Of a stretch of DNA of 64,000 bases, positions 37,002-53,028 are shown piece after piece; the first letter of the stretch is position 1, and every line of letters begins with the position of its first letter. The DNA comes from Naegleria gruberi. Its lineage: Eukaryota. The translations under genes and the position numbers were made by a program. The stretch lies in assembly GCA_000004985.1 (NCBI GenBank), contig GG738885.1. One strand, written 5' to 3'. The notes under the pieces were generated by a model. The model had not been told where the DNA came from, ran no database searches, and saw only the letters and a list, made by a program, of their open reading frames with translations.

Positions 37002-37114
37002 GTTTCATTATTTTACAAAATCCAAATTGACCAATCCAGCCAAATGCAAAAGCAGAAATACAGAAGATAACAGAATTTACAAATTTAGATGTATTATTAA
37101 CAATTAGAAAGAGC

Positions 37115-37738: not shown

Positions 37739-38118
37739 TTCAAATTATTCCAAAAAATGTTTTTAAAAACAATTAATAATAGCGTAATTCTTATACCACG
37801 CTAAAATGACACAATTCTAATTCCAATCTATTAACGATGGTGATGAGAATAAATCACATACAATTTAGATGAAAATTCAAACGCTCCGAGATCAGCGATT
37901 CTGCACGTTTTGTCTTTGGATTTTTTTTAAATTTAATAAAAAATAGCGGGAAAGCCTCCATGCAAAGATTCCTTAATAACAACCAAGCGATAATAAGAAG
38001 CAAGAGAGCAAACTCAAAACGTTGATTTGTTAATGAAAATAATACAATGAGGTAAACTGAAAGATTATCTTCAGAACAATCAAATGTCTAAAGGTGGAGG
38101 TTTTGACAAGCAAAAAAA

Positions 38119-39485
38119 ATGGGTAAAAAGCAATCAAAGCAAAATTCATTGTCACTTGTTCTTCCTCCAAGCAAGTGTCCAGATCATATTCAAATTCCGA
38201 TAACTTTGGACGATAGTAGTAGATTTTCGTTTTTAGGAAATCATACGTTTTTGATTCCAACAGTACAATTGGATGATGTATTGAGAAGATTAGAATGTAC
38301 AAGCGAATGGATTCCAATAGAATTTGCTGTTAATAATTTGAATGCCACAAATCGTATTGTTGCTTTTGGACATTCAGAGAGTTTAGTTGTTATTGTTACT
38401 GGTAGGTAATAGTGTGGATTACCTTAGGTTGACTTGTTTGATTTAGATGATTTCAAAGTGTTTTGTGCTGGAAAATCAAGTGAGTTAAATAATACTGGAA
38501 ATAATGCCACATGGCGTGATTTCAAAAAGATTAAGAATACTTTTACTGAGGTTATTAAATCAGTATACTGTATTAAAGAAAGTATACTATTTACTACTGT
38601 AGATGGACAGGTATATGCCTACAGTAACTCAAAGACAGCTAAATTAGGACTTGGAGAAGCTATTGCAACAATGGAGCCTGTCAAAGTTGAAAAGGCTGAT
38701 ATTTTCGAAAAAGGATTAGCTGAGGAAATTCCACTACCAAAAATCAAATCAATTAGCTTTAGTGAAAACATTACAGCTTTTATTAGTGAAGAGGGTATGT
38801 AGATATCATTTGAAATCGTACTTAATGAGATAATTTAGGAAAGGTATTTGTTTGTGGTTATGGAAGCGGTGATAAATGGAAATTTCCAATCAAAGATGAA
38901 GATGAAACACCATTCAAACGTCTTGATACACCAGCTCTTGTAAAAAGTTTACTTAAGAATAAGGTTATTAAGCAGGTAGCTTGTGGTTTTTATCACATGC
39001 TCTTCCTTACAGATAATGGAGAATTATATGTTTGTGGTAATAATGAGTTTGGTCAACTTGGAAATGGAAAAAATGAAAATGTTGAAGGTTGTGTAAAAAG
39101 AGTCAAATTTGGAATTGGTGTTAAGCATATTGCTGCATCAAACAATTTTTCAGTTATTGTAACTGAAGATAATCAAATTTATAGATTTGGAGATTTGAGT
39201 TGGCAAGTGAAGAATAACCCAACTACTTTCAATTTACCAACTTTACTGACTGAATATACAGAAGTTGGAAATCCTCCTGTTAAATCAATTTATGCTGTAC
39301 AATCTGGAGTTGTAATTCAAACTGAGAGTGACGAAATTTACATGATTGGGCCACTTGAAGCAAAATTAGGATTTGAAGCCTTTAGAAAATTAAGTATTCT
39401 AAAAGGAGATGGAGAAATCTCATTATCCATTACTAGCAATTCAATTGTGTGCGACTATGATTCAAACAAGAAATATAAATTCTAA
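38119..39485 (+). CDS. RCC1-repeat (beta-propeller) protein with a candidate N-myristoylation signal (MGKKQS). Multi-exon; ORF pieces 38119..38402, 38447..38799, about 38840..39485.
   Basis: RCC1-type repeats: VACGFYHMLFLTDNGELYVCGNNEFGQLGNG; HIAASNNFSVIVTEDNQIYRFGD. Introns with gtaggt/gtatgt donors between ORF pieces. Confidence 0.7.
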
Positions 39486-39584
39486 GTTACAAGATGTCAC
39501 AATAATTTTATGTACATAATTTTGAATGAATTTCCAAAATTTCTAATCTATACAAGGAAAATATGATAAATTATCACCAAATAA

Positions 39585-40483
39585 TTAACATCCACATCCA
39601 CCTCCTCCACTTCCAGAATTGTTTGACTTCCCTGATGAAGGATGTGATTGAGGTTGAGATCCTAAGGTCACAGTCTTTGTTCCAGTCTCCGAAGAATTAT
39701 TCTTTCTTCTATTAAATTCACTTTCAGCATAATTACCTGCTTGATATAAACGATCCAACATATTGTCAAATGGTTCTTTTACACCAGAACCATCCTTTGC
39801 TGATGCTTCAAAATATGGAATATTAAATTTCTTTGCTAATTCTTCAGCTCTGCTACGATCAACTACTCTTCTATGAACCATATCACTCTTGTTACCTACA
39901 AGTGTAATAAGAGCATTCTCTTGAGCATTGGATTTAATTTGTTGAATCCATTTGGTTGTATTTTGGAAACTAGTTTCATTTGTCAAGTCGAAAACTACTA
40001 GAATACCATTTACACCTCTATAGTATGAAACAACAATACTATTAAAACGTTCCTATATAATGTTGTTATTGTGTTAATCATCCATTATTATTATTATCCA
40101 CGTTAGCTTCACTTATTGTTAATATTATTAAACATACTTGTCCAGCTGTTACTTGATAAGACAAAACTATTAATTTCAAGAAGAGACTTACCTGTATCCC
40201 ACAATTGCATTCTAGCAACCTTTTGATTTTGCATTAACTTGTTCTTAATTTTAAAATCAACTCCTATTGTACTTTGATATGTATCATTATATTCATTGTC
40301 TGTGTATCGTAAAATTAAACAAGTCTATTATCATCCGATTATTATTAAATTCCATTCATTAATAACAATTATTTACCTTTCCAGCGCCAGAATCACCTAT
40401 TGAAATTTAAATACTTTCAACGTTTACAAAAACATACCGACCAGCAAAATTTTAACGAACAAGTCGTAATTTTCTTCTTTCAT
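39585..40483 (-). CDS. Rab-family small GTPase, 5 exons with 4 short introns, C-terminal CGC prenylation motif.
   Basis: Spliced product MKEENYDLFVKILLVGDSGAGKTCLILRYTDNEYNDTYQSTIGVDFKIKNKLMQNQKVARMQLWDTAGQERFNSIVVSYYRGVNGILVVFDLTNETSF...LVGNKSDM...FEASAKDGSGV...GGGGCGC. P-loop, switch I TIGVDF, WDTAGQE, NKxD and SAK motifs are all present. Confidence 0.85.
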
Positions 40484-40900: not shown

Positions 40901-41482
40901 ATGACTAACAGAAAGGACCTCATCTTTAAACTTGCCAAAGGTTATTTCGGCAGAAGTAAAAATTGTTGGAGAACAACAAGAAATAGAGTGGAGCATGGTC
41001 TTGAACATGCCTACCGTGGAAGAAAGGAAAAGAAAAGAACAATGAGTAGTATTTGGATACAAAATGTTAAAGCTGCTACCGAACAACATGGAGTAAAATA
41101 TAGTCAATTTATGAATGGATTTGTTCTTAGTGGATGCCAAATTAATCGTAAAGTACTTGCCGAATTGGCCCAAACAGAACCTTTAACTATGCGTGCTTTA
41201 GTAGCCTTGTCTGTGCAAGCACGTAGAGAATTTGCTGTAGAATTCGGAAACAAGGATAACTCAGCTGGTGCTCTTTCGTATGAACTTGACTTCCCAGTGG
41301 AAGCTGAATTATCTTATGAAGGAGAAGATGCTGAAGTTACTCGTATAACGGAACATTTGTCCAAAGTTTTCTCTGACCTTGTTGCCAAGGAATATGAAGA
41401 AGATAAGATTTACCAACAAAAACTTGAACAAGAAATTAAGGATAAGAAGATTAAAGTCACCGGAGACCCAATTATTGTATAA
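40901..41482 (+). CDS. Mitochondrial ribosomal protein L20 (bL20m).
   Basis: LAKGYFGRSKNCWRTTRNRVEHGLEHAYRGRKEKKRTMSSIWIQNVKAATEQHGVKYSQFMNGFVLSGCQINRKVLAELA is collinear with the bL20 family. Extended C-terminus typical of mitoribosomal versions. Confidence 0.8.
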   Translation: MTNRKDLIFKLAKGYFGRSKNCWRTTRNRVEHGLEHAYRGRKEKKRTMSSIWIQNVKAATEQHGVKYSQFMNGFVLSGCQINRKVLAELAQTEPLTMRALVALSVQARREFAVEFGNKDNSAGALSYELDFPVEAELSYEGEDAEVTRITEHLSKVFSDLVAKEYEEDKIYQQKLEQEIKDKKIKVTGDPIIV

Positions 41483-41667
41483 AAACCTAAAAAAACAAAT
41501 ATTATATGGATTAAATTATATTTTCTAAATTGTTTCATCTCCTCCTTACTGAAATTGAGAAACTTTACAAATAATTATTAATATTATTTGGAGAACATGC
41601 AACCCTTTAGATAATTTAAAAAAGTCAAAAGCATTAAAACCAACAAGTTGCAAATTTTCAATAATAG

Positions 41668-41685
41668 AATTTTGAGATAGACAAT
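41668..41685 (+). promoter_or_regulatory. Conserved 5S upstream box (AATTTTGAGATAGACAAT) abutting 5S copy 1.
   Basis: Shares AATT..G/GAGATA..AAT with the 16 nt immediately 5' of the other two 5S copies (44291..44306 on the minus strand; 47180..47195). Confidence 0.4.
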
Positions 41686-41803
41686 GGCTACGGCCATATC
41701 ACGATGAATGCACCTCATCCCGTCCGATTTGAGAAGTTAAGCATCGTCGAGCCACATCAGTACTGAGGTTGGAGACAACTTGGGAACCTGTGGTGCTGTA
41801 GTC
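41686..41803 (+). rRNA. 5S: 5S ribosomal RNA gene, copy 1 (118 nt).
   Basis: GGCTACGGCCATATCACGATGAATGCACCTCATCCCGTCCGATTTGAGAAGTTAAGCATCGTCGAGCCACATCAGTACTGAGGTTGGAGACAACTTGGGAACCTGTGGTGCTGTAGTC. Canonical 5S blocks CCATA(U/C)CAC, CATCCCGTCCGAT, GAAGTTAAGC, AGTACT, GGGA(A)CC. The 5'/3' ends pair to form helix I. Followed by TTTTT, a Pol III terminator. Confidence 0.9.
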
Positions 41804-41838
41804 TTTTTCAAATTAACACTTTTAATGTTTGTTCCAGA

Positions 41839-42804
41839 TTATTCAAAATGATGTTTATTTTCTTGAATGAATTGTTCCAAAGATCTTGGTTTCTTTCCAG
41901 TAACAATCTCAAAATCTGCATGTACATTAGCAGAGGTTCCATTCAATTTGTAAAATTGGAATAATCTCACCAGTCCAAATACTAAAAACTTTGGTAATTG
42001 ACCTAATTGATTAGCCAACTCAATTTCATCAATTCTTGCCCAAGTAATTTGTCTTCCAATAACTTTGGAAATAATCTCAGCTACTTGATCATAATTTAAA
42101 GATTGAGGTCCTGTAATATTGTAAACTTGTCCTCCGTGAATATTTGGATTTTCGGTGAGAATTTGAGCAGCCATATCAGCAATATCTCTAACATCGACAT
42201 GACTAATGTGATATGGAACTCCATGGTCATTTCTTGGCTTGAAGAATTGAGATGAGTTTTTGATGGAATGAATGTCATCTCTAAGGAAGTTTTGCATGAA
42301 TAGATTAGGTCTTAAAATTACGTAGGAAACATTTGGTGCCTTATTCGAAAGTAAATTACCAATTACAACTTCAGAATCGCCATGATATCTGAATAAACTA
42401 TTCGATTCAATAGTTGTTGAAGCACCCAATCCAGATAATCTTATCACTTGTTTCAAATCATACTTTGAATATTGAAGAATCTTGTCAATTAATTGCTCTT
42501 CCACTTTTGGTTGATTTGGTGCACTCAATGTTAAAACGAAAACCCTTTCAATCTTTTCAAATGTACTCGATGGAATTAATTCGAGTTGATTCAAGTCACC
42601 TTGAACATATTCTACATCAAGATTATTTACATAATTTACAAGTTCTTGTTTTGCCTTTTCAACATTTCTCACCAAAACCTTCACTGATTGACCAAATGAT
42701 TTCTGTTCTGAAAGGGCTTTCAATAAATGCTTTCCAATAGTTCCTGTTGCTCCAGTAATAAGAATACTGCTCTTACTATTGGTTGCTGTGATTTCGCTTG
42801 ACAT
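41839..42804 (-). CDS. NmrA-like / atypical SDR NAD(P)-binding protein.
   Basis: Rossmann motif ILITGATGTIGKHLLKAL near the N-terminus; NmrA-like length. Start taken at ATG 42804 (the ORF-track start at 42858 is TTG). Confidence 0.75.
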   Translation of the reverse strand: MSSEITATNSKSSILITGATGTIGKHLLKALSEQKSFGQSVKVLVRNVEKAKQELVNYVNNLDVEYVQGDLNQLELIPSSTFEKIERVFVLTLSAPNQPKVEEQLIDKILQYSKYDLKQVIRLSGLGASTTIESNSLFRYHGDSEVVIGNLLSNKAPNVSYVILRPNLFMQNFLRDDIHSIKNSSQFFKPRNDHGVPYHISHVDVRDIADMAAQILTENPNIHGGQVYNITGPQSLNYDQVAEIISKVIGRQITWARIDEIELANQLGQLPKFLVFGLVRLFQFYKLNGTSANVHADFEIVTGKKPRSLEQFIQENKHHFE

Positions 42805-43023
42805 TTTGCTGTTTTTTTTTGTTTGTTTTATTTGCTGCAACTGTTTCAACTTTCCCAATTAATAGCTTTGTCGCACTTGATTTGTACGTGCTGCGCAGAT
42901 CAGCAAAAATATTCTGCTTCTGAAAAATAGTGCACTTTTAAGCAGCGAGTAAGCACAAAATTCCTATTCACGTTTCGAATAAAAAAAGGGGATATTCAGT
43001 ATGCAGTAGAATAGTAAGAAAAA

Positions 43024-43506
43024 ATGTCAACAAGAGCATTCGAAACTGTTAACGTGTATGTGAGTGGAGTTATTCCAAATGTTAGTGCATCAACTGTTTG
43101 GTCACTGATTGGTTCTTTCAATGGTTTGCCAACTTGGTATGATACTGTTGCCAGCAGTGAAATGGACAATAATCAATCGGATAATACTGTGGGAGGTATT
43201 CGAAAGCTCACCATGAAAAATGGTATTATTCAACGTGAAAGATTAATTGCTATGGATTTACGGAATTCTTCTTACACTTACTCCCTAGTTGATGGTATCC
43301 CATGGGAAGGATATAATAATGATTACTTTGCAACTATTTCAGTCAAGCCAATTACAACAAATGGAACTGATAAGGTAGATAACACATTATTGGAATGGGA
43401 GGCAGAATTTACATGTCCACATGGTGAAGGAAAGAAATGGCAACAAGTTATTGAGGGAATATTTGAGTATGGAATTAAATGTTTACAAAATATTTACAAC
43501 AAGTAA
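43024..43506 (+). CDS. SRPBCC (Bet v 1 / polyketide-cyclase-like) small protein.
   Basis: 160-aa ORF. Composition and length suggest a START/Bet v1-like hydrophobic ligand-binding fold (VSASTVWSLIGSFNGLPTWYDTVASSE ... EWEAEFTCPHGEG). Assignment made by eye. Confidence 0.5.
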   Translation: MSTRAFETVNVYVSGVIPNVSASTVWSLIGSFNGLPTWYDTVASSEMDNNQSDNTVGGIRKLTMKNGIIQRERLIAMDLRNSSYTYSLVDGIPWEGYNNDYFATISVKPITTNGTDKVDNTLLEWEAEFTCPHGEGKKWQQVIEGIFEYGIKCLQNIYNK

Positions 43507-43619
43507 TAAGATTGAATAAAGGTCTTTCAAATGGACTCGATTTTGATTTCTGTCTTGGCTTGAAATTTTGTTTGAATTCAATACTACATTATTAAATATA
43601 AAGATATGTTTACACGGTT

Positions 43620-43685
43620 AACTACTAGGCCTCATCCCGTCAGACGTTGAGTCACATCTGATAACTTGGTGATGTAGTTATTTTT
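43620..43685 (+). pseudogene. Truncated 5S rRNA-like element (about 60 nt plus T5), with internal deletions.
   Basis: aACTACtaGGCCTCATCCCGTCaGAcgTTGAGtcacatctgataACTTGGtgaTGTAGTtaTTTTT. Keeps the 5S 5' end, the CCTCATCCCGTC-GA-TTGAG core and the 3' end ACTTGG..TG.TGTAGT followed by a T-run. Lacks positions about 10-27 and the box-C region. Confidence 0.5.
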
Positions 43686-44172
43686 CCATTTCTATTAAAT
43701 GAAAATGCAATATCAATTACTGGTTGGCTAGTTAGCACTTGTTATCTACTTGCTCGTCTAAATATCAACCTAACAAAAAAAATCTCAGTTAGATTTGATA
43801 CGTTTCACTTTGTGGATAATGTAATTATTATTATCAACAACAGTAAACATATTTCTATTTAAATATTTTATGGAAATATTCATCAATTTTAGATAAATTT
43901 ATCAAAATTATTAAATTTTTTAATTCTTTGCTCATTTCCAATAAAAATTGATTTCAATAACATTATTTTCAAATAGTTGTAATCTTTCAAATCCAATGTT
44001 GTTATTATCAAAATAAGTATTTACGATAAAATTATATTTTCAGAAATATTTTCAGATAACGAAATAAATAATTAGTATTATAATTTAAATTATTACTAAA
44101 AACATCTTTAAAATCATAAATAGTTTCAATATATTCAATCAGTCTATTGGGATTATTCAAAAAAGAAGAAAA

Positions 44173-44290
44173 GACTACAGCACCACAGGTTCCCAAGTTG
44201 TCTCCAACCTCAGTACTGATGTGGCTCGACGATGCTTAACTTCTCAAATCGGACGGGATGAGGTGCATTCATCGTGATATGGCCGTAGTC
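44173..44290 (-). rRNA. 5S: 5S ribosomal RNA gene, copy 2 (minus strand).
   Basis: The reverse complement is identical to copy 1 except G2->A. 5' flank (44291..44306) is the box AATTAAGGAGATAAAT. 3' flank is TTTTCTTCTTTT. Confidence 0.9.
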
Positions 44291-44354
44291 ATTTATCTCC
44301 TTAATTCTTAGTATACAAACAATCTCATACCACTACCTAATTAAGCAATTGGAC

Positions 44355-45605
44355 CTAATATTGTAGTTTTTCAAAAACTATCTTCATGTTTTGTGGTAAA
44401 TCTAATTCAGGTTTGTTGAACCCCTTCGAATAAATTAGTTTTTCTAATTTTGGTAATTTCAATAAAGATTCCAATCCAAACTGGTCTATTTCAGCATATT
44501 TGATGGAGAGTTCCTTAATGGACTCGAATTTAGAGAAATGTTCTGCTAATTCATTGGTAATACTAAACATTTTAAAGGTTTCCAATTGTTTAAACGTTTC
44601 AGGGTTCAACCTAGCGAGATTTTCCCCATATCCACCATCCTCAAATGAAAGCTCTTTCAATTGACTATTTTTGGAAATTGAATCCATCAAATAATCAGAA
44701 AAATCAGCATATGACAAGCTTAATCTCAATGTTTTGACATTCTCGCAAAATGGTACTCCAAATCCTTCAATTCGTTCTCCATGCAAAGTAATCTTCTCTA
44801 AATGTTTCAACTTATTTATGGCTGCAAATGATTCAACAACTTGCTCACTTGTTGGATCTTCTGTAATTTCACCTCTTATTAGATAAATAACGGAATATAT
44901 CTCTTTAAGATTCTTCCAATTTTCAAATATTTCTGGCGCTGTAAAAATTGATGTTAATGACTTGTTTTTGAAATATTCTAATTGAGGAGTGTTTTTTGAT
45001 ATTTCAATAAAATGTTCAATTAATGAGCTTGAATCAATACAATCCAATGTCAATTTCTTCAAATTTCTACACTGTGCAATTAAAGAAGCCAAGCTGGAGA
45101 GACCATAATCACTATTAGAATAATAATCACATCTAATATAAATATTTTCCAAACTTGGAAATTTTTTCAATGCCCATTGAGAAACATATTCTGGAAGATA
45201 GTCACTAGATAACTGAATTGATTTAACCAAATCTGTATCCACATTTTTGAATGTTCTTTCCAAATTTTCAATTACTTTTTCTTTAGTATTATGTTTCTGG
45301 AGGTTTGGTTTCAAAATATTTGATTTTTCACCTTCTATCAAGTCAATTCTCTTTCCATCATTGGCACAAAGTTCAATATTTATCACTTGTCTTTCAAATG
45401 ATTCTTCCACCCTCGTTTGGTCCCAACACAAATTCTTGAATAAGAAGCAAATATTTCCTGTTGGAAATCTTCCAAAATAATACTTGAAAAATGTTGAAGA
45501 TTTTCTACTGCACAACTTGGCTTCAAATTCTAAATAGGACAAAATTTCCATTATGATTTCTGATGGAAGCTGGTGATAGAGTTCACCACCATCATGTGTT
45601 GACAT
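44355..45605 (-). CDS. F-box / leucine-rich-repeat protein.
   Basis: N-terminal F-box LPSEIIMEILSYLEFEAKLCSRKSSTFFK, followed by repeated LxxLxxLxL units (LKKLTLDCIDSSSLIEHF, LEKITLHGERIEGF, LKELSFEDGGYGENL...). Confidence 0.7.
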   Translation of the reverse strand: MSTHDGGELYHQLPSEIIMEILSYLEFEAKLCSRKSSTFFKYYFGRFPTGNICFLFKNLCWDQTRVEESFERQVINIELCANDGKRIDLIEGEKSNILKPNLQKHNTKEKVIENLERTFKNVDTDLVKSIQLSSDYLPEYVSQWALKKFPSLENIYIRCDYYSNSDYGLSSLASLIAQCRNLKKLTLDCIDSSSLIEHFIEISKNTPQLEYFKNKSLTSIFTAPEIFENWKNLKEIYSVIYLIRGEITEDPTSEQVVESFAAINKLKHLEKITLHGERIEGFGVPFCENVKTLRLSLSYADFSDYLMDSISKNSQLKELSFEDGGYGENLARLNPETFKQLETFKMFSITNELAEHFSKFESIKELSIKYAEIDQFGLESLLKLPKLEKLIYSKGFNKPELDLPQNMKIVFEKLQY

Positions 45606-45943
45606 TTTTTTTTAAAATTGGCTATTTTTCAAAGTTCATCTAAGCGCTATCCTGAAAGATTGAAATGTAAAATTCATTTAAATTGAGAATAGAGTGATGT
45701 TGCATTTGTAACAACTTTATTCCTGATACTGTAACCATGTAGTGTTGTTTGTTACAATTGTTATTGCAAAATTCTAATGATTGTTAACAATTAGCTAATA
45801 GTTAATAAAGATGAGATGATCATAGACACAATAGTATCAATTTCATCAAGTGGAAATGTTGATAATTAAATATTCTGATGAATAGTTTACTTTCTAAAAC
45901 GTTCGGTAATCCTTTCCATGAACTTTAAGATCAACAAAAAAAA

Positions 45944-47002
45944 ATGCAAAGATCACAACAACAGCAAACCATCAAACTCACCAAAGCAAAACAAAAGAAA
46001 ACAATTTCTTCAGAAAGATTGCCAACAGAAACATTTATATCCATTGTTAGAGATTGTGTAAAATTACAACTTGATATTAGACCTTTACAATTCAAAAAGA
46101 AAATCTCTAACGGAACCAGAGACTTTCTTTGTGATAAGGTAAAGAATTCGAAGGCAGTTTGTCGAGAAATCAATAGAGGAGATAATGTCATGATGAATAT
46201 AATTTTCACATGTCAAGATTCTCAACCAATAATTCCAAATTATATTAAGGGAGTAACGAGTTATATTGAAAAGCATAAAATTTCGTACCCAGACAAGATC
46301 ATGTCAATTGACACTTTACGAATTGATATTGAATTTCCGTACCATAATTCAATAACAGAGGTTGCTAAGAAGATTAATTTACATGAGGAAGAATCATTGA
46401 TCAATTCTCTTATAACCATTATTGATAAGGATGATCATCAAGTGTATTTCAAAATGAAAACTAATTATTGCAATGAGGATAAGGAACATTTGTATAGATA
46501 CATTGTAATTGGAAAAATGGATCAAAGTGAGCATGCTTTCATCTTTGATGTGAGCGATTTTATAAATATTTGTGGTATCAATGGTGGTATTCCAAAAAAT
46601 CTCAAAAAGATTTATGATTTGTGCATGCCAAAGGATTTAGTCCAATATTTTGAAAAGAATGGATGCAGCTCAACAAATTCAGATACAAGTGTCAGAAGAG
46701 TTGGATTTGGAATGTTCTTCAGATCAGATACCAGACCACGCAGAGAGCGTTTCGGACAATACTACCGCCCATGTTGGGAATCAGATGGTTCAGTTGCAGC
46801 CTTAGTGAACTCGTACTCAAGGAATGGAGATTATGGTATTCAAATATTGGCACAGGGCGCAAGAGAATTCCATCCAACTGAGTATTCTGGTGAGATTGAT
46901 GTAGGATATTACAAATTTAAAATGGGATGGTGTAGATTCACTTCATTCCAATCAGCCCAGCACTACACTTGCAAATTAATCCAGGAAGTTAAAAATTCAT
47001 AA
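45944..47002 (+). CDS. Hypothetical protein (352 aa); no domain recognised.
   Basis: Uninterrupted ORF with ATG at 45944. Complex, non-repetitive sequence, Cys/His-containing C-terminal part. Confidence 0.55.
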   Translation: MQRSQQQQTIKLTKAKQKKTISSERLPTETFISIVRDCVKLQLDIRPLQFKKKISNGTRDFLCDKVKNSKAVCREINRGDNVMMNIIFTCQDSQPIIPNYIKGVTSYIEKHKISYPDKIMSIDTLRIDIEFPYHNSITEVAKKINLHEEESLINSLITIIDKDDHQVYFKMKTNYCNEDKEHLYRYIVIGKMDQSEHAFIFDVSDFINICGINGGIPKNLKKIYDLCMPKDLVQYFEKNGCSSTNSDTSVRRVGFGMFFRSDTRPRRERFGQYYRPCWESDGSVAALVNSYSRNGDYGIQILAQGAREFHPTEYSGEIDVGYYKFKMGWCRFTSFQSAQHYTCKLIQEVKNS

Positions 47003-47057
47003 ATATTGAATTTTATTCTGCTACGATTTCTTTTTGAACTTCGATCATAAATTGGTA

Positions 47058-47145
47058 AAGGCAAAATGTGTCCAATAAATAGAAGATTGATCAACCGTTT
47101 CAAATTCTTCAACCAAACCTTGCTGAACTAAGAATCTTTACGTTT
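47058..47145 (+). repeat. About 88-nt dispersed repeat, copy A, 50 bp upstream of 5S copy 3. Its partner is at 48098..48190.
   Basis: ggcaaaatgtgtccaataaatagaagattgatcaaccgtttcaaattcttcaaccaaaccttgctgaactaagaatcttt versus ggcaaatgttcaataaatacgagggtgatcaaccttttcaaattcttcaaacaaaacctgaaccaacaagattctgtc, about 80 % identity. Confidence 0.7.
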
Positions 47146-47195
47146 TGTTCCAAGTATATATTGTTATTTAAATACCAGAAATTAAGGAGATAAAT

Positions 47196-47313
47196 GACTA
47201 CGGTCATATCACGATTCATGCACCTCATCCCGTCCGATTTGAGAAGTTAAGCATCGTAGAGCCACATCAGTACTGAGGTTGGAGACAACTTGGGACCCTG
47301 TGGTGCTGTAGTC
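47196..47313 (+). rRNA. 5S: 5S ribosomal RNA gene, copy 3 (sequence variant).
   Basis: GACTACGGTCATATCACGATTCATGCACC...GTAGAGCC...GGGACCCTG... carries 5 substitutions relative to copy 2 (C9T, GA21-22TC, C63A, A101C). Same upstream box AATTAAGGAGATAAAT. TTTTT terminator. Confidence 0.85.
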
Positions 47314-48097
47314 TTTTTATTTTCAACCTTTTATCATGAGAGGAAATGATTGTTGGTTCGAATCAAGTGTTCCTTTATAGAAGTCCTTTCAAAATGAAAT
47401 ATTCTTTTGCAAACCATGTTAAGAGTTTTACAACTTTTTCAAAATTCCAAAATGTTTCTATTATTTAACAGAGCGAGAAATCATACCAGATGAATACTCA
47501 CAGGACAAAATTGAGAAGGAACAACCACTTTGATTATTGACCAAATTCTAGCTACTCATCCTCTGAGTGAAAGGAGGAGAGTTTCCAGATTCACATTTCA
47601 GTCTTCATGATCTCTGAAATGTCCTTCTAGGTAAGTATGAAGAAAGCAAAGAGTGCAAATTCAAACAAATCTTAAAAACCTTTCCAGATGTATTTATTTT
47701 TGAAAATTGAATTATTGTCATTGTTTGTTTTTTTATGATTTGAATTCTTTGAAATTGTTGAACATGAAGTAAACACCGAGTTGACATAATTATATTGAAA
47801 TTTATGTAGGATGTGAATTGAATCAGAAATTCAGACAGTTCAGAAGAGAATAACGAAAATTCAACTGTGCATAATTGAATATTTTGGTTTTATTTACAAT
47901 GGTTGCCTAGGCTTACAAAATTTTATGGAGTTCACCACATTTTGAATTGTTTGTTTCTCATTTCAACAGTATTCTGTGATTGAGATTTGGAAGTTTTACT
48001 TGTTTCACTTCCAATAGAAGTAATGTTTGAAATAGATGAAGTTTCAATTTCGATTTGATTAAGAAAATATCAAACCAAAATTTGGATCAAGCAACTC

Positions 48098-48190
48098 AAC
48101 ATGGCAAATGTTCAATAAATACGAGGGTGATCAACCTTTTCAAATTCTTCAAACAAAACCTGAACCAACAAGATTCTGTCTTCGTTGCCT
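48098..48190 (+). repeat. Partner copy B of the dispersed repeat. On the minus strand it coincides with a candidate terminal exon (...RILLVQVLFEEFEKVDHPRIY*).
   Basis: See copy A. Minus-strand translation of copy B gives an open frame ending in TGA, preceded by an acceptor (aattttcag at 48296..48288). Copy A translates to the related RFLVQQGLVEEFETVDQSSIYWTHFAFTNL*. Confidence 0.6.
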
Positions 48191-48953
48191 TCACTGTTCA
48201 TACAGTCAAAGACTGTAGCGGGATAGTCGCCATATTCCTGGCAGGCTTCCCGTCCAAAATTACAAATGATAAACAAACAATAATTCTGAAAATTGCATCA
48301 GAACAACAGTGTGATATCATCACAGGAGGTGTACACCATGTACTACTTCATCTGGGAGTTGAGTATAACCACATCTGCTCTCGTAAAATGTTATTCCTTT
48401 GAGAACAGGAGTCAAGGCTTCCTTATTATCACCTCTCTTCAAGATGACCATATTCAATGGTCCCCCTCATGGCCGAATCATAAGCTAGGATATCTATATC
48501 TTCTTCAGTCATTTTTTTGGTTTCTTATTATTACCTGATTTCTGCATCTTGTGTTCTTGAAGTTTCTTCACTTCTGAGGTTTAAAAGCCCAATAAATATG
48601 ATATTTAATATAATAATTAAATAAATAAGAAAATAATTTTTATTATTCAATTCATTAAGGCAATAACTGGCATATCTTTTCAGAATAGTCCTAAACATTG
48701 ACTTTTCATCATTTTCACTCGTCGTTGAGAAATGAATCAGCTGTACTCGCAACAGTTTACTCAAGATTCAAATTGAATTAAACATGAACCGAGTTTGTGT
48801 CCAGAAACAAAAATCGGTTCATTGACAGAATTTCTTTGCATAAGAACTACTTTCTAAAAATATACATCTCAAACAAGTATAAAAAACAAGGAAGTGCATG
48901 GTGTTTTGAATTCAAAAAAACAACAAAACAAGAAAAACATAACAACAAACATA

Positions 48954-49412
48954 ATGCAATTATTTGTCAAGACACTCACTGGAAGAACCATCACTTTGGA
49001 GGTTGAATCTAATGATTCGATTGAAAATGTGAAAAGAAAAGTGCAAGATAAGGAAGGAATTTCACCAGATCAACAAAGACTCATCTTTGCAGGAAAACAA
49101 TTGGAAGATGGCAGAACTATTAATGATTACAACATTCAAAAAGATTCAACTCTTCATTTGGTGTTGAGATTAAGAGGAGGAATGCAACTTTTTGTAAAAA
49201 CCTTAACTGGAAAGACAATTACAATTGAAATGGAATCGATTGATACTGTTGAGAATATGAAACAAAAGATATTTGATAAGGAAGGTATTCCATCAGATCA
49301 ACAACGATTGATTTATGCCGGTAAGCAATTGGAAGATGGAAGAACTATAAGTGATTACAATCTTCAAAAGGATTCAACTGTGCATTTAGTATTGAGATTG
49401 AGAGGAGGTTAA
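48954..49412 (+). CDS. Di-ubiquitin (two head-to-tail 76-aa ubiquitin units, each ending RGG). Unusually divergent from canonical ubiquitin.
   Basis: [76 protein letters not shown] plus [76 protein letters not shown]. Exactly 152 codons then TAA. The ORF-track start at 48894 is GTG; ATG at 48954. Confidence 0.85.
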
Positions 49413-49594
49413 GTTAGCAAAATATCATAGATTCTCTCAATTATTGCCAATAAATTACACTGTAACTTTTTTTGGCTGTGTGTTCGATTCCATTCAACCT
49501 TTTAGCTTTAGAATAAGTAGATTTGCTAGTCTTCATTTTCAGGTGGAACCAATTGAAAGTTCAAACTGTTAACTGGAAGAAACAATTTTACAAA

Positions 49595-50992
49595 AAAATG
49601 CCTCTAACAGATTTAAACTTTTTTAAACGCAGAAAGATGAATGCTAGTAAAGAAACTAGTAGCATTCAACTCTCCGAAGGCTTTAAACAATTATTTTCTA
49701 TTAAAGATATATTTCAATCAATTGTAATGGGAGGATTTATTTCTCTCCCTGATGCTATTCGAATGTCGCTAGTTTGTAAAGATTGGTTTCAAATGATCGA
49801 AAGTACGGAATCGTATAACATGTTTTTGAAATGTTTTATTCAATCATCCACTAAACATCTCTCCAAATTGACTATCCAAAATTCTACCAATGGTACTGAC
49901 ATTAGTTTAACAAAAGATCATGCCAAAATAATATATGAAATGATCAGAGGATGGAGTTGTGTTAGATCATGCCAAAGTAATCGATCATTCTATTTCACAG
50001 AGAATAATAATTATCCCTATATTGGTGATCAACATGTGGTGTCAGCTCAGCAATTTTTCACTCCTCATCTAATTAACACTAATTTAACAATTGTACCAGA
50101 TAACATCCCATCCAGAAAAAAAGAAATCTTTGGATTATTTTACAATATCGGAAATGAGAACGAGGAGTTTAATTTTGAGAAAATCTATTGGGCACAGAAA
50201 GAGATAGTGTATAATTATGAAGAGTATTTTTTCCTACCCATGATTAAATTAACTAGAAAGAAAGGAAGCAATATTAATTGGAAAGATATTTATTTTGGCT
50301 CCTGTGCTGAATGGAGGGATGAGCATAAAGAGCTCATCAGAAATATAACCAAGGATGGCAAAACATTTGTTGTGGATTCGAATTTGTCGTATGTTTTTGG
50401 ATCATGTTTCGATGGTGAGGTGGAGCATAAAATTCTGAAAAACATTAGAAAGTGCTCAAGATTTACTCTTCGTCACCTACCATACGAATTTTTGCATGGA
50501 AATTTCAACGATGACGATGATGATACCAAGCCAAATAGTCATAAAGGAGGATTGAATGACTTCTTCAATCTTACTTTGAAGAAGATGCTCTACCGATACT
50601 TGAAAATGAATTTGCTAAATATTCCAATATGTAGAGAGTATATTTTTACCTTTTTGATTTATCTTTCTAAGAAACTTCACTATGCTCACAGATTTTCGTT
50701 TTATCACGATTCTCAATTGGAGGGAAGTTCACTTATTCAATTAGGTGCAGATGAACAGGTAATGGATTGGCTGAATGAATATAAGAAATGTGAATGTAAA
50801 AACTATGATGAGATCTTTCACACCATTGTGAGAGTTGAGTTGGATTATTATGGATCTATTCAGGGAGAGGAGGTAAAATCTCATTTATATGTTCTCTCCT
50901 TAAAGAAAGATGATGAAAATGAAATATGCAATTTTGAGTTTGTGGACTATCATTATTATAATTACAAAATTGTTGGAGAAATTCTGAGTTAA
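49595..50992 (+). CDS. Hypothetical protein with an N-terminal F-box-like motif (466 aa).
   Basis: ISLPDAIRMSLVCKDWFQMIE resembles an F-box. Long ORF. An acceptor (ttcattttcag at 49541) upstream suggests a possible 5' exon or UTR intron. Confidence 0.55.
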   Translation, partial: KMPLTDLNFFKRRKMNASKETSSIQLSEGFKQLFSIKDIFQSIVMGGFISLPDAIRMSLVCKDWFQMIESTESYNMFLKCFIQSSTKHLSKLTIQNSTNGTDISLTKDHAKIIYEMIRGWSCVRSCQSNRSFYFTENNNYPYIGDQHVVSAQQFFTPHLINTNLTIVPDNIPSRKKEIFGLFYNIGNENEEFNFEKIYWAQKEIVYNYEEYFFLPMIKLTRKKGSNINWKDIYFGSCAEWRDEHKELIRNITKDGKTFVVDSNLSYVFGSCFDGEVEHKILKNIRKCSRFTLRHLPYEFLHGNFNDDDDDTKPNSHKGGLNDFFNLTLKKMLYRYLKMNLLNIPICREYIFTFLIYLSKKLHYAHRFSFYHDSQLEGSSLIQLGADEQVMDWLNEYKKCECKNYDEIFHTIVRVELDYYGSIQGEEVKSHLYVLSLKKDDENEICNFEFVDYHYYNYKIVGEILS

Positions 50993-51212
50993 TAAACCTT
51001 TCAATTATTATTTGGAAGATGTGACAATAAAGAATTATTTAATGTTTGGTTATATATCTATTGTTTTATCTCCTTAATGAAATTAATTGTTAATTACAAA
51101 TAATTATTGGTTAGTATTTTTCACATTTCTCCACAATCACCAAATAGTAAAAAATCATCACTATTGAATCGTCCTCCGAATTTAAAACCACACAGACAGA
51201 CAACAGAAAAAA

Positions 51213-53028
51213 ATGGAAGAAGCAACATCATCACCAATGGTAGATTTATTCTCCTCTCAAAATTATTTCACTGTCGGATTGAGTGTGATCATTGTTTTGA
51301 TTACTATTCTCTATATTAAATTAATACCAAAGAAACCAGCAAAATCTCCGCCAATGGAAGGTAGATTTTTGTGGCCATTCATGGGAGTAGGAAAGAGATT
51401 CGGAACAGAGCCAGTTAAATTATTGAATGAATGCAAGAAAAAGTATGGTGATGTATTTACTCTTCATGTTGCTGGTAAATGTTTCACATTCTTGACAGAT
51501 GCTGAATTGTTTCAATATTTTTTTAATCCTGCAAAGGGTAATTCGATTCGTGTTAAAAATAAGAAACCAAGTGGTGAAGAACATAAATTGGCTATTAGTT
51601 TCGATCATGCTGTATTGGAATTTATTAGTAGAGTATTTGGAATTCCAGTTAATGATTTCATGTCTCAACACATTACCATGGTTAATACTATGAGAGCTAA
51701 ATTGAGTCCAAGCACAACTCTTCCATTCTATACCAAAGAAATTGCATCAAATTTAATGGATGTTTTTGAAAAGACAACTGAAAATAATACAAATGTCATG
51801 GGTTATGTTTGGGATCCAAAGGGAACTGATGATCTTTTCAAAGCCATTACTGAAACACTTTTTTGGAGTACTGTTAAGTCATTGTATGATAAGAAGGCAT
51901 TCATTTCAAATGAACAAGATGCTTGTAAATCATTTCAAACCATTGATTCACAATTTGAAATTAGAGCCAGTGGTTATGTTCCAGAATCATGGATGAAGAC
52001 ATTCAAGGGATCTAAGGACTTTTTATTGAAGATGATTTCATCACTATCAACCAATATGGATGATACCACTCCTGATAATGAAAAGAGAATGTTCCAATTG
52101 CTTAGGGAAGCTCTCAAGGATGTTGTTGAGGATCAATCAACCATTGACCACTTTGGTTTGGCTATGCTTTGGGCCTCCCAAGCCAATTCTCTTCCATCAT
52201 CTTTGTGGACTATTTGTTACGTTTGTAAGGAACCTGCAATTTATGAAAACCTTCAAAAGGAAGTTGATGAAGTTTTTGCCAATCATTTGGAAAATCCACG
52301 TGATTTAACATTTGAAAAGTTGAATTTATTCCCATATGTTAAAGCTTGTATTTATGAAGGTAAGAATATGATTGAATATTTCCATTCTAATATTTAAACA
52401 ATTATTATGATAATTATAATAATTACTATTCAATTAATTATTTAAATGAAACTTCAAATAGCTATTAGAATTATTCCACCAGGAATGTTAATTAGAAAGG
52501 TCATGCATCCAATTAAACTTCCAGATAGAGACATTATCATTCCAGAAGGACACAATCTCTGTATTTCTCCATTCATTACTCATTTGGATGATTGTTATTA
52601 TGATGAACCTCTCAAATATAGACCTGAAAGATGGTTAGAAAGTGGTGAAAATAGTTTGAGTGATAGAAGTAAGCAATTTATTGCTTGGGGAAGAGGTCCA
52701 CATGGTAAGTACCTTCTTTACAATTTACCAATATTTTCACACATTACAAAAAAAAATACCTCAAACCGTTTTAAATACTGAATCCTCCTAATAATTATAA
52801 ATTATTTATCAACCCAATCAAATATCATGATAATTCCTCAACTTTATAATAGAATGCCCAGGTAAAGCCTTCAGTATTGTAGAAATGGTTACATTCATTG
52901 CTCTATTCTTCTACAAATTTAGAAATGTAAAAATCAATGGTGAAATTCCATCTCCTGCTCTTCACCGTTTAATTGGTGTTCCTCATCCAAGTCAACCAAT
53001 TTCAATTTCATTTGAGAAGAGAAATTAA
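51213..53028 (+). CDS. Cytochrome P450, clan 7 (CYP7/CYP8/CYP39-like). Exons 51213..52359, 52462..52704, 52853..53028.
   Basis: N-terminal TM plus PPMEGRFLWPFMG. Collinear with CYP7A1 (GDVFTLHVAGKCFTFLTD; LAMLWASQANSLPSSLWTICYV). ExxR (EAIR) and PERW. Heme loop reconstituted across the last intron: FIAWGRGPH|ECPGKAF. Confidence 0.85.

What the first reader, a model, noticed from the sequence alone, without database searches (positions are those of the whole stretch)
41600..47320. Interspersed 5S rRNA mini-cluster, alternating orientation, each copy in the 3' flank of a same-strand protein gene
Three 118-nt 5S genes (41686..41803 +, 44173..44290 -, 47196..47313 +) sit about 2.4 and 2.9 kb apart, separated by ordinary protein-coding genes rather than arranged in a tandem array. 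Each lies 65-215 bp downstream of the stop codon of a gene on the same strand (mito-L20, the F-box/LRR gene, and the 45944..47002 gene). Copy 1 also ends only 35 bp from the convergent stop codon of the NmrA-like gene. This suggests that 5S copies insert into, or are retained in, gene 3' flanks.
Basis: seen in the sequence. Interest (0 to 1): 0.6.

Follow-up and report, generated by a model that had tools for sequence, protein, structure and literature searches.

The report
Scattered 5S rRNA genes in Naegleria
Three genuine 5S ribosomal RNA genes sit between ordinary genes in the amoeba Naegleria gruberi; this is that genome's normal scattered arrangement of about 280 copies, here lying inside a 9.7-kb stretch that two related amoebae lack at this site.

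Summary
Rfam finds three full-length 5S rRNA genes at 41686-41804 (+), 44172-44290 (-) and 47196-47314 (+), and the flanking genes are as described.

The window is Naegleria gruberi NEG-M. A published table lists 279 putative 5S genes on 117 scaffolds of this genome, with no tandem arrays: 207 singletons, 30 pairs and 4 triplets. This locus is the scaffold_41 triplet, so interspersed 5S copies are normal here.

Each copy looks like a self-contained Pol III unit: a conserved ~20-35 bp upstream element, the 119-nt gene and a T-run. Flanks beyond that are unrelated. Copy 3 is a weakened variant, and a decayed fourth copy lies near 43604-43685.

The "same-strand 3' flank" rule is a geometric result of all copies lying in convergent (3'-3') spacers. 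That bias is real at this locus but unproven genome-wide, and one other Naegleria-type locus contradicts it.

New context:
- The cluster, plus a probable U1 snRNA gene, lies in a ~9.7-kb block absent between L20 and P450 in N. lovaniensis and Willaertia.
- The gene pair between copies 1 and 2 has a 93-96% identical paralogous pair on another scaffold.

Verdict: an ordinary member of a known kind (dispersed 5S family), of modest interest.

The parts
41686..41804 (+). 5S rRNA gene, copy 1 (modal sequence, G at position 2)
   Evidence: RF00001 105.4 bits, full length. 117/117 identical to copy 2 over positions 3-119. T-run TTTT follows directly.
44172..44290 (-). 5S rRNA gene, copy 2 (modal sequence)
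   Evidence: RF00001 106.2 bits. Conserved downstream of the F-box gene in environmental contig L019.
47196..47314 (+). 5S rRNA gene, copy 3, a diverged variant
   Evidence: RF00001 94.9 bits. Substitutions C9T, G21T, A22C, C63A, A101C. G21T and A101C break helix pairs. Energy on the copy-2 structure is -36.3 against -42.1 kcal/mol. It is also the low-similarity member (0.708 against 0.75) of the scaffold_41 triplet in PMC3369914 Table S1.
44291..44322 (-). Conserved upstream element of copy 2 (AGAATTAAGGAGATAAAT next to +1, with an A/T-rich TATA-like stretch at about -22 to -30)
   Evidence: The inverted repeat between copies 2 and 3 extends 32 nt upstream of the gene (154 nt, 93%). The same upstream stretch is shared with unlinked locus L007 (158 nt, 91.8%). 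In-register view; motif search.
47164..47195 (+). Conserved upstream element of copy 3
41651..41685 (+). Upstream region of copy 1, a more diverged version (AATAATAGAATTTTGAGATAGACAAT)
   Evidence: In-register comparison.
43604..43685 (+). Probable decayed, internally deleted 5S pseudogene (relic)
   Evidence: Colinear local alignment to 5S, including an exact CCTCATCCCGTC and a terminal TGTAGT followed by a T-run. Score 48, against a best of 41.5 in 1042 window tiles and 45.5 in 1000 shuffles. Not reported by cmscan at E<=5.
47474..47638 (-). Probable U1 snRNA gene, convergent with copy 3 and 159 nt away
   Evidence: RF00003 38.5 bits (below the gathering score of 69.5), E 8.6e-7 in the 16-kb search and 3.5e-6 in the whole-window search, full model. 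Exact 5' AUACUUACCU, stem-loop I loop GAUCAUGAAG, Sm site AAUUUUG. MFE z-score is unremarkable.
40901..41482 (+). Mitochondrial-type ribosomal protein L20 gene; left anchor of conserved synteny
   Evidence: Pfam PF00453. 100% identical to the N. gruberi L20 protein. Orthologues in L017 and L018.
41483..51212 (.). ~9.7-kb block absent at the orthologous L20-P450 junction of N. lovaniensis and Willaertia magna. It contains all 5S copies, the relic, U1, NmrA, cyclase, F-box/LRR, the 352-aa orphan, a small spliced gene, di-ubiquitin and a 489-aa F-box-like ORF.
   Evidence: In L017 and L018 the P450 gene starts about 200 bp after L20. In the window the P450 orthologue starts at about 51213. No tblastx HSP of 45 bits or more from L017 or L018 falls inside 41483-51200.
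41839..43506 (.). Divergent gene pair NmrA-like (41839-42804, -) and Polyketide_cyc2 (43024-43506, +), bracketed by inverted copies 1 and 2; duplicated elsewhere in the genome
   Evidence: Exact proteins XP_002674322 and XP_002674254. An adjacent paralogous pair, NAEGRDRAFT_73482 and 73481, lies on a 290,827-bp scaffold at 93.5% and 96.2% aa identity. Inverted repeat I2 is 125 nt at 99%.
44355..47002 (.). Divergent gene pair F-box/LRR (44355-45605, -) and the orphan 352-aa gene (45944-47002, +), bracketed by inverted copies 2 and 3
   Evidence: Pfam. Exact proteins XP_002674323 and XP_002674255. The orphan family has only 10 representatives with E<=1e-3 among 1.84 billion.
48112..48524 (-). 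Small spliced minus-strand gene that closes the third spacer as convergent
   Evidence: Three in-phase minus-strand coding segments (MTEEDIDIL... to ...EEFEKVDHPRIY*). Its 3' coding end has a 77% identical copy at 47069-47137. No Pfam hit.
51213..53022 (+). Cytochrome P450 gene; right anchor of conserved synteny
   Evidence: tblastx to the P450 genes of L017 and L018; ORF.

Best explanation
This locus is an ordinary sample of how Naegleria gruberi keeps its 5S rRNA genes. They form a dispersed multigene family of about 280 copies rather than tandem arrays.

Each copy is a self-contained RNA polymerase III unit of about 160 bp. It has a conserved ~20-35 bp upstream element with a TATA-like stretch, the 119-nt gene with its internal control region, and a T-run terminator. 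Transcription is independent of the neighbouring protein genes (inferred; expression not measured).

Copies arise by DNA-level duplication or ectopic conversion of this short unit. They persist where they do no harm, and some decay: copy 3 is a weakened variant and a relic lies at 43604-43685. This is birth-and-death under strong purifying selection.

The three copies here, with a U1 snRNA gene, lie in the 3'-3' spacers of a ~9.7-kb block of lineage-restricted genes. That block entered the L20-P450 junction in the N. gruberi lineage. The "same-strand 3' flank" pattern follows from sitting in convergent spacers, which in this compact genome are the intergenic positions free of Pol II promoters.
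For: Shown:
- Three full-length 5S genes.
- The window is N. gruberi NEG-M.
- 279 hits on 117 scaffolds; minimum spacing 462 bp (involving a partial hit) and otherwise at least 1.1 kb; 207 singletons, 30 pairs, 4 triplets; the scaffold_41 triplet has this window's spacing (PMC3369914 Table S1).
- Similarity between copies stops about 32 nt upstream and at the T-run.
- The same upstream stretch occurs at unlinked locus L007.
- T-runs follow every copy.
- Copy 3 carries 5 substitutions, 2 of which break pairs.
- The relic scores above all controls.
- All copies lie in convergent spacers.
- The block is absent in N. lovaniensis and Willaertia, and cmscan finds no 5S in 83 kb of those genomes.

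From the literature:
- PMC3369914 reports an ICR and TATA box in N. gruberi 5S genes, and found no TFIIIA in the genome. That fits reliance on a conserved upstream element.
- Dispersed 5S families evolving by birth-and-death are described for S. pombe and filamentous fungi (cited in PMC3215682).
Against: - No expression data, so the activity of each copy, especially copy 3, is inferred.
- The mechanism of dispersal (duplication or ectopic conversion) is inferred only from the sharp homology boundaries.
- Whether 3'-3' spacers are preferred genome-wide was not testable. The nominal local enrichment (about 1% by spacer length) rests on 3 non-independent copies and a rough ORF-based gene map.
- Local clustering (38 links under 6 kb) is 3-6 times the random expectation and is not explained by simple independent dispersal.
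- PMC3369914 Table 1 labels the N. gruberi genes 'tandem', although its own coordinates do not support that.
Confidence: 0.7

Rival explanations
1. One reading: 5S units are actively targeted to, or functionally coupled with, the 3' flank of a same-strand protein gene. Examples would be insertion at polyadenylation regions or co-transcription with the upstream gene.
For: All three copies and the relic have a same-strand gene 64-203 nt upstream. The window's convergent spacers without 5S are very short.
Against: Same-strand placement is automatic in a convergent spacer. Each unit has its own conserved upstream element and terminator. The F-box-to-5S distance differs by 120 nt in a ~97% identical strain. 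In L007 the 5S abuts the 5' end of a divergent gene, and related 5S genes in 12 environmental contigs mostly lie next to start codons.
Confidence: 0.1
2. Dispersed 5S units, and other small-RNA genes such as U1, are seams of genome remodelling. Identical ~160-bp units act as substrates for ectopic recombination, so divergent gene-pair modules bounded by 5S copies get inserted or duplicated. The 9.7-kb block would then have been built from such modules.
For: Copy 1 sits at the left edge of the lineage-specific block, 203 nt from the L20 stop. Inverted, virtually identical copies 1 and 2 bracket the NmrA-cyclase pair, and that pair is duplicated as an adjacent pair on another scaffold at 93-96% aa identity. 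Copies 2 and 3 bracket a second divergent pair. 5S genes cluster locally 3-6 times above random genome-wide, at spacings of one to two genes.
Against: The paralogous locus could not be inspected, so it is unknown whether 5S copies flank it. There is no 5S at the right edge of the block. Rearrangements without 5S also occur nearby: the segment 36722-40327 is inverted relative to N. lovaniensis. Only one locus was examined.
Confidence: 0.15
3. The 5S genes are retained in 3'-3' spacers because Pol III complexes bound there block Pol II read-through between closely packed convergent genes, acting as a roadblock or insulator.
For: Copy 1 ends 34 nt from the NmrA stop and copy 2 starts 64 nt after the F-box stop, so the mRNA 3' ends must abut or overlap the 5S units. 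Pol III factors are known from yeast work to block intergenic Pol II transcription; this is recalled from memory and was not checked here.
Against: Ten other convergent gene pairs in the window manage with 5-281 bp spacers and no 5S. 207 of the 241 loci are singletons whose context is unknown. L007 is not in a convergent spacer. No transcript data.
Confidence: 0.08
4. The cluster arose by local duplication of gene-plus-5S modules (copy 1 to 2 to 3).
For: Copies 2 and 3 share 154 nt including 32 nt of upstream sequence. A 69-nt duplicated gene fragment brackets copy 3 and U1.
Against: The intervening genes are unrelated to one another. Flanks beyond -35 and the T-run do not align. The shared upstream stretch also occurs at unlinked L007, so it is a family-wide promoter element and not a local duplication scar.
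Confidence: 0.07
5. The copies are retroposed (RNA-mediated) 5S pseudogenes or 5S-derived SINEs.
For: Dispersed short Pol III-derived sequences are typical of retroposition.
Against: The copies are full length, score 95-106 bits, share upstream non-transcribed sequence, end at the native terminator, and have no A-rich tail, no SINE body and no target-site duplications. No reverse transcriptase or integrase domain was found in the block ORFs scanned.
Confidence: 0.03
6. Assembly artefact: a collapsed or mis-joined repeat.
For: 5S is a multi-copy repeat, and short-read contigs break at it.
Against: Independent environmental contigs reproduce the unk352-F-box-5S junction (L019) and both sides of copy 1 (L016 ends 183 bp before it and L020 ends 34 bp after it). 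The coordinates match the published NEG-M 5S table to within a few bp.
Confidence: 0.02

Closest known systems
Dispersed 5S rRNA gene families of Schizosaccharomyces pombe and filamentous fungi (birth-and-death model of Rooney and Ward 2005, as cited in PMC3215682)
   Same: Individual 5S genes are scattered among protein-coding genes on many chromosomes or scaffolds. Flanks are unrelated. Sequence variants and truncated pseudogenes coexist with a dominant functional type. The genes are not linked to the large rRNA genes.
   Different: The Naegleria copies carry a strongly conserved ~20-35 bp upstream element. More than half of the 279 hits share one similarity value (161 by my count from the table). 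About a quarter of same-scaffold neighbours lie within 6 kb, in mini-clusters separated by one or two genes. Whether variants are shared between species, a hallmark of birth-and-death, was not tested.
Published N. gruberi 5S inventory (PMC3369914, Table S1)
   Same: Same genome and same genes. The scaffold_41 entries 297689, 300171 and 303199 correspond to copies 1-3, with the third of lower similarity.
   Different: That paper gives only BLAST coordinates and summarises the arrangement as 'tandem'. It gives no strands, gene context, synteny, relic or U1 linkage.
5S rDNA-U1 snRNA linked repeat units (Asellus aquaticus; razor shells, PMC3178405, as cited in PMC3215682)
   Same: A 5S gene and a U1 snRNA gene lie within a few hundred bp of each other.
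   Different: In those animals the two genes belong to one tandemly repeated unit. Here it is a single convergent pair in a unique spacer with no repeat unit.
Acanthamoeba castellanii dispersed 5S genes (recalled from memory: Zwick et al. 1991; not checked here)
   Same: A free-living amoeba with many dispersed 5S genes.
   Different: A different supergroup. I could not check the details with the tools.

Membership tests
5S rRNA (Rfam RF00001) | Covariance-model score above the curated gathering threshold over the full model | tested here: met
   105.4, 106.2 and 94.9 bits against a gathering score of 38, model 1-120.
5S rRNA (Rfam RF00001) | Three-way junction fold of about 120 nt with helices I-V | tested here: met
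   CM alignments. The MFE folds of copies 1 and 2 give the canonical three-arm shape at about -42 kcal/mol. Copy 3 keeps it with 2 broken pairs (-36 kcal/mol).
5S rRNA (functional Pol III gene) | Pol III terminator (run of T) at the 3' end | tested here: met
   TTTT, TTT(C)TTCTTTTTT and TTTT directly after ...GTAGTCT.
5S rRNA (functional Pol III gene) | Promoter: internal control region and/or upstream TATA-like element | tested here: inconclusive
   A conserved upstream element and A/T-rich stretch were seen. The ICR and TATA box are reported by PMC3369914. No functional test.
5S rRNA (functional Pol III gene) | Expression and incorporation into ribosomes | not testable with these tools
   No RNA or ChIP data available.
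Dispersed 5S multigene family | Copies not in head-to-tail tandem arrays | tested here: met
   Minimum spacing among 279 hits is 462 bp (involving a partial hit) and otherwise at least 1104 bp; 207 singletons. No tandem structure in the window.
Dispersed 5S multigene family | Copies on many chromosomes or scaffolds, with unrelated flanks | tested here: met
   117 scaffolds. Flanks of the three copies and of L007 do not align beyond about -35.
Dispersed 5S multigene family | Not linked to the 18S-5.8S-28S unit | tested here: met
   No other rRNA found in the 64-kb window. PMC3369914 Table 1 gives 'Located with rDNA units: N'.
Birth-and-death evolution | Coexistence of functional copies, variants and pseudogenes | tested here: met
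   Copy 3 variant, relic, and 15 partial hits plus graded similarity values in Table S1.
Birth-and-death evolution | Variants shared across species (trans-species clustering) | not tested
   No 5S genes from N. lovaniensis, N. fowleri or Willaertia were retrievable. None were present in the 83 kb held.
5S-snRNA linked tandem repeat unit | 5S and U1 within one tandemly repeated unit | tested here: not met
   A single 5S-U1 pair with no repeat of the unit in the window.
5S-derived SINE or retroposed pseudogene | 5S-like head joined to an unrelated body or A-rich tail, with target-site duplications and no conserved upstream sequence | tested here: not met
   Full-length genes ending at the terminator, with shared upstream sequence.
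Pol III-gene-targeted retrotransposon hot spot (Ty3 or TRE type) | Retroelement ORFs (RT, integrase) at a fixed distance from the Pol III gene | tested here: not met
   No such Pfam domains in the block ORFs scanned. The small gene and the spacers were checked only by ORF listing.

The most novel reading that the evidence does not exclude
Dispersed 5S units, with other small-RNA genes such as U1, are the seams along which the N. gruberi genome gains and duplicates short gene modules. Identical ~160-bp units would provide homology for ectopic recombination. That would explain why copy 1 sits at the edge of a lineage-specific 9.7-kb insertion, why inverted copies bracket divergent gene pairs, and why one such pair (NmrA-cyclase) has been copied to another scaffold. 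A linked possibility is that the units are kept in 3'-3' spacers because bound Pol III machinery stops Pol II read-through.
Probability: 0.15. Interest if true: 0.55.

Novelty: new member of a known kind. Interest (0 to 1): 0.3.

Why it matters
The result corrects the record for a reference protist genome. N. gruberi 5S genes are dispersed singletons and small gene-interspersed clusters, not tandem arrays as one published table summarises them. Each carries a conserved upstream element, which fits a published report that no TFIIIA was found in this genome.

It also gives a concrete and cheap test case for two questions. First, does a compact genome confine Pol III genes to promoter-free 3'-3' spacers? 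Second, do dispersed 5S copies mark sites of lineage-specific insertion and segmental duplication?

For annotation, it adds a probable U1 snRNA gene and a 5S pseudogene. None of this changes current understanding of 5S biology, so the value is mainly descriptive and comparative.

Tried and rejected
1. DNA of the paralogous NmrA-cyclase locus, and of NEG-M generally. The exact-protein look-up for the paralogue P0001 found nothing on record, and the look-up for the N. gruberi L20 protein returned only an environmental contig, so the NEG-M assembly seems not to be indexed. Whether 5S copies flank the paralogous pair is therefore unknown. Guessing its scaffold from accession order or Table S1 coordinates was too unreliable to use.

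2. Genome-wide test of spacer class and orientation. This was impossible without the NEG-M sequence and annotation, and Table S1 has no strand column. As a substitute I scanned metagenome contigs for the 5S core. Only one Naegleria-type contig (L007) turned up.

3. Identity of the other contigs. The remaining 12 contigs carry a 5S that is ~77-85% identical to the Naegleria 5S; 11 are AT-rich and L015 has 51% GC and is probably a different organism. An FGGY kinase search gave only ~40% hits to insects and Acrasis, so the source organism stays unidentified. Their context data are weak evidence only.

4. A viral-contig scan for the same core found nothing.

5. Orthologous or paralogous loci in Willaertia (L001, L018) and N. 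lovaniensis (L002, L017). No 5S genes in 83 kb, so 5S organisation in those genomes remains unknown. At the N. gruberi density, zero in 83 kb is not surprising.

6. Local-duplication origin of the cluster. Rejected, because the flanks do not align and the shared upstream stretch is family-wide.

7. Terminal repeats bounding the 9.7-kb block. None convincing.

8. The upstream motif as a marker of further Pol III genes in the window. Only the two known sites matched.

9. U1 thermodynamic support. The MFE z-score is only -0.71, so the call rests on the covariance model and the sequence signatures.

10. Literature. Rooney and Ward 2005 (PMC555991) is not held. No paper in the library describes Naegleria 5S organisation apart from PMC3369914.

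Full report
OBSERVATION. An Rfam scan of the whole window finds exactly three matches above gathering score, all to 5S rRNA (RF00001) over the full model. They are 41686-41804 (+, 105.4 bits), 44172-44290 (-, 106.2 bits) and 47196-47314 (+, 94.9 bits). No tRNA genes were found.

SOURCE ORGANISM. The L20 protein is 100% identical to the Naegleria gruberi protein. Four window proteins match N. gruberi NEG-M entries exactly (XP_002674322, XP_002674254, XP_002674323, XP_002674255), all on one 362,555-bp scaffold. The window is ~32% GC and gene-dense.

GENOME-WIDE CONTEXT. PMC3369914 lists 279 putative 5S genes in NEG-M with scaffold coordinates (Table S1). I analysed that table. The hits lie on 117 scaffolds, and 264 are at least 110 nt long. 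The smallest same-scaffold spacing is 462 bp and involves a partial hit; the next is 1104 bp. There are no head-to-tail arrays. Linking copies closer than 6 kb gives 207 singletons, 30 pairs and 4 triplets. The scaffold_41 triplet (297689, 300171, 303199; spacings 2482 and 3028 bp) matches this window (2486 and 3024 bp). Its third member has the lower similarity value, as copy 3 does here. Interspersed 5S genes are therefore the rule in this genome, and the 'tandem: Y' entry in that paper's Table 1 is not supported by its own coordinates. Clustering is still real: 23% of same-scaffold gaps are under 6 kb against 4% expected for random placement in a genome I took as 41 Mb (my assumption). By my count from the table, 161 of the 279 hits share the modal similarity value of 0.75. 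That is consistent with, but does not prove, a dominant identical sequence.

ANATOMY OF THE UNITS. Copies 1 and 2 differ only at position 2 (G or A, each able to pair with U117). Copy 3 differs from copy 2 by C9T, G21T, A22C, C63A and A101C. G21T and A101C break helix pairs and cost about 6 kcal/mol on the common structure (cmscan also flags non-canonical pairs). Aligning the copies with 200-bp flanks shows that homology is confined to the gene and a short upstream stretch. The inverted repeat between copies 2 and 3 is 154 nt at 93%, which is the gene plus about 32 nt upstream. The same upstream stretch occurs at an unlinked Naegleria-type 5S locus from a metagenome (L007; 158 nt at 91.8% to copy 2). 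In register, the upstream sequences share AGAATTAAGGAGATAAAT next to +1, preceded by an A/T-rich TATA-like stretch; copy 1 has a more diverged version. Every copy is followed directly by a T-run. PMC3369914 reports an internal control region and a TATA box for N. gruberi 5S genes and found no TFIIIA in the genome. A conserved upstream element travelling with every copy fits that report. I infer that each copy is an autonomous Pol III unit of about 160 bp. Expression was not testable.

ADDITIONAL ELEMENTS. (i) A more permissive Rfam search finds a full-length U1 snRNA match at 47474-47638 (-). It scores 38.5 bits, below the curated threshold, with E 8.6e-7 (16-kb search) and 3.5e-6 (whole window). 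It has an exact 5' AUACUUACCU, the stem-loop I loop GAUCAUGAAG and an Sm site. Its MFE is unremarkable. It is convergent with copy 3, 159 nt away. (ii) At about 43604-43685 (+), 100 nt downstream of the cyclase stop, there is a colinear, internally deleted 5S-like sequence: an exact CCTCATCCCGTC and a terminal TGTAGT followed by a T-run. Its local alignment score of 48 exceeds all 1042 window tiles (best 41.5) and all 1000 shuffles (best 45.5). It is probably a decayed fourth copy. (iii) A 69-nt direct repeat (47069-47137 and 48109-48177, 77%) is a duplicated 3' coding end of a small spliced minus-strand gene at 48112-48524. It brackets copy 3 and U1.

THE 3'-FLANK PATTERN. Copy 1 lies between L20 (+) and NmrA (-). 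The relic and copy 2 lie between the cyclase (+) and F-box (-). Copy 3 and U1 lie between the 352-aa gene (+) and the small minus-strand gene. The more informative statement is that all copies are in 3'-3' spacers. In a rough ORF-based map of the window, the other ten convergent spacers are 5-281 bp, and convergent DNA makes up roughly 10-25% of intergenic DNA. Three independent placements there would be unlikely, at about 1% or less.

LIMITS ON THAT PATTERN. The copies are not independent, since they share one inserted block (below), and the test is post hoc. Other evidence also argues against a strict rule. In a ~97% identical environmental strain the F-box-to-5S spacer is 184 nt rather than 64 nt (L019). 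In L007 the 5S is 165 bp from the start codon of a divergent alpha/beta-hydrolase gene. Twelve further contigs carry a related 5S (~77-85% identical; 11 are AT-rich, and the source organism was not identified). In those, 9 copies lie within about 250 bp of a start codon, and none of the four with both neighbours visible is in a convergent spacer. I conclude that passive retention in promoter-free spacers is plausible locally, that active targeting or coupling to the upstream gene is unsupported, and that the genome-wide test is still needed.

SYNTENY. In N. lovaniensis (L017) and Willaertia magna (L018), the L20 orthologue is followed after about 200 bp by a P450 gene and then a SAM-domain gene. 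In the window L20 ends at 41482, the P450 orthologue begins at about 51213 and the SAM gene lies at about 53660-55780. No tblastx HSP of 45 bits or more from either outgroup locus falls inside 41483-51200. Two outgroups share the L20-P450 adjacency, so the ~9.7-kb block was gained in the N. gruberi lineage. It holds the three 5S genes, the relic, U1, NmrA, the cyclase, F-box/LRR, the 352-aa orphan, the small gene, a di-ubiquitin gene and a 489-aa F-box-like ORF. The block is older than the split from the environmental strain, whose contigs reproduce its junctions and break at the 5S positions (L016, L019, L020). Its genes are lineage-restricted. The 352-aa protein has only 10 representatives with E<=1e-3 among 1.84 billion. 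The closest Willaertia NmrA (63% identity) lies on another contig with different neighbours and no 5S within 10 kb. Nearby, the segment 36722-40327 is inverted relative to N. lovaniensis, so small rearrangements are common in this region.

A DUPLICATED MODULE. The NmrA-cyclase divergent pair is the segment bracketed by the inverted, virtually identical copies 1 and 2 (125-nt arms, 99%). It has an adjacent paralogous pair (NAEGRDRAFT_73482 and 73481) on a 290,827-bp scaffold, at 93.5% and 96.2% amino-acid identity. That is about the divergence seen between NEG-M and the environmental strain (F-box 95.7%). I could not retrieve that locus, so I do not know whether 5S copies flank it. This is the basis of the more novel reading, that 5S units act as recombination seams, to which I give about 15%.

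EXPLANATION AND COMPARISON. The best-supported reading is a dispersed 5S multigene family of autonomous Pol III units that evolves by duplication or ectopic conversion, purifying selection and occasional decay. This locus is one of its rare triplets, lodged in the promoter-free spacers of a recently acquired block. The closest known systems are the dispersed 5S families of S. pombe and filamentous fungi, described under the birth-and-death model (as cited in PMC3215682). The defining features I could test are met: no tandem arrays, many scaffolds, unrelated flanks, no linkage to the large rRNA genes, and variants and pseudogenes present. Trans-species sharing of variants was not testable. The 5S-U1 linkage known from Asellus and razor shells involves tandem repeat units and is not matched here. 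Retroposition, SINE origin, a retrotransposon hot spot, local module duplication and assembly artefact were each considered and are contradicted by the data.

VERDICT. This is a new, better-characterised member of a known kind of organisation in a published genome. Interest is modest (0.3). The synteny gain, the duplicated bracketed module and the U1 neighbour are worth a quick genome-wide follow-up.

Noticed in passing
window 47474-47638 (-): Probable U1 snRNA gene below Rfam's gathering score (38.5 against 69.5 bits; E about 1e-6), with a canonical 5' end, stem-loop I loop and Sm site. It is convergent with 5S copy 3.
   Followed up: partly
window 43604-43685 (+): An internally deleted 5S-like relic 100 nt downstream of the cyclase stop. 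It scores above all window tiles and all shuffles but is invisible to cmscan.
   Followed up: yes
window 47069-47137 and 48109-48177: A 69-nt direct repeat (77%). It is a duplicated copy of the 3' coding end (…EEFE(K/T)VD…IY) of the small minus-strand gene at 48112-48524, and it brackets 5S copy 3 plus U1.
   Followed up: partly
window 41839-43506; paralogues NAEGRDRAFT_73482/73481 on another scaffold: The NmrA-cyclase divergent gene pair is duplicated as an adjacent pair elsewhere in the genome (93.5% and 96.2% aa identity). The DNA of that locus could not be fetched.
   Followed up: partly
L020 (ENA ERZ929261 contig, = window 43335-41838): The environmental NmrA is mosaic. Its N-terminal part is closer to the window copy (96.5 against 90.6%) and its C-terminal part is closer to the paralogue (96.4 against 93.8%). 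It also carries a frame break. This could reflect gene conversion between paralogues or a chimeric assembly.
   Followed up: no
L019 2288-2407 versus window 44351/44352: A 120-bp insertion/deletion between the F-box stop codon and 5S copy 2 in a ~97% identical environmental strain.
   Followed up: yes
window 36722-40327 versus L017 2316-9796: The segment carrying the Arf/Rab, RCC1, TB2/DP1 and HCNGP genes is inverted relative to N. lovaniensis, and two N. lovaniensis genes (575 aa and 448 aa) have no counterpart there.
   Followed up: partly
PMC3369914, Table 1 versus Table S1: The paper summarises N. gruberi 5S genes as tandemly arranged, but its own coordinates show 117 scaffolds, 207 singletons and no spacing under 1.1 kb between full-length copies.
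   Followed up: yes
window 48953-49408 (+): A di-ubiquitin-like gene made of two 228-nt repeats only 76% identical at the DNA level, inside the lineage-specific block.
   Followed up: no
L003-L006, L008-L014 (metagenome contigs VFQM/VFQO): An unidentified AT-rich protist whose 5S shares the 30-nt loop C core with Naegleria (~78-85% identity where a full or near-full hit was obtained) and also has single 5S genes embedded among unrelated protein genes. Its FGGY kinase has no close relative (about 40% identity).
   Followed up: partly
L018 25-107 (-) and L001 16520-16606 (+): tRNA genes 83 and 87 nt long (so possibly intron-containing) in the Willaertia magna loci.
   Followed up: no
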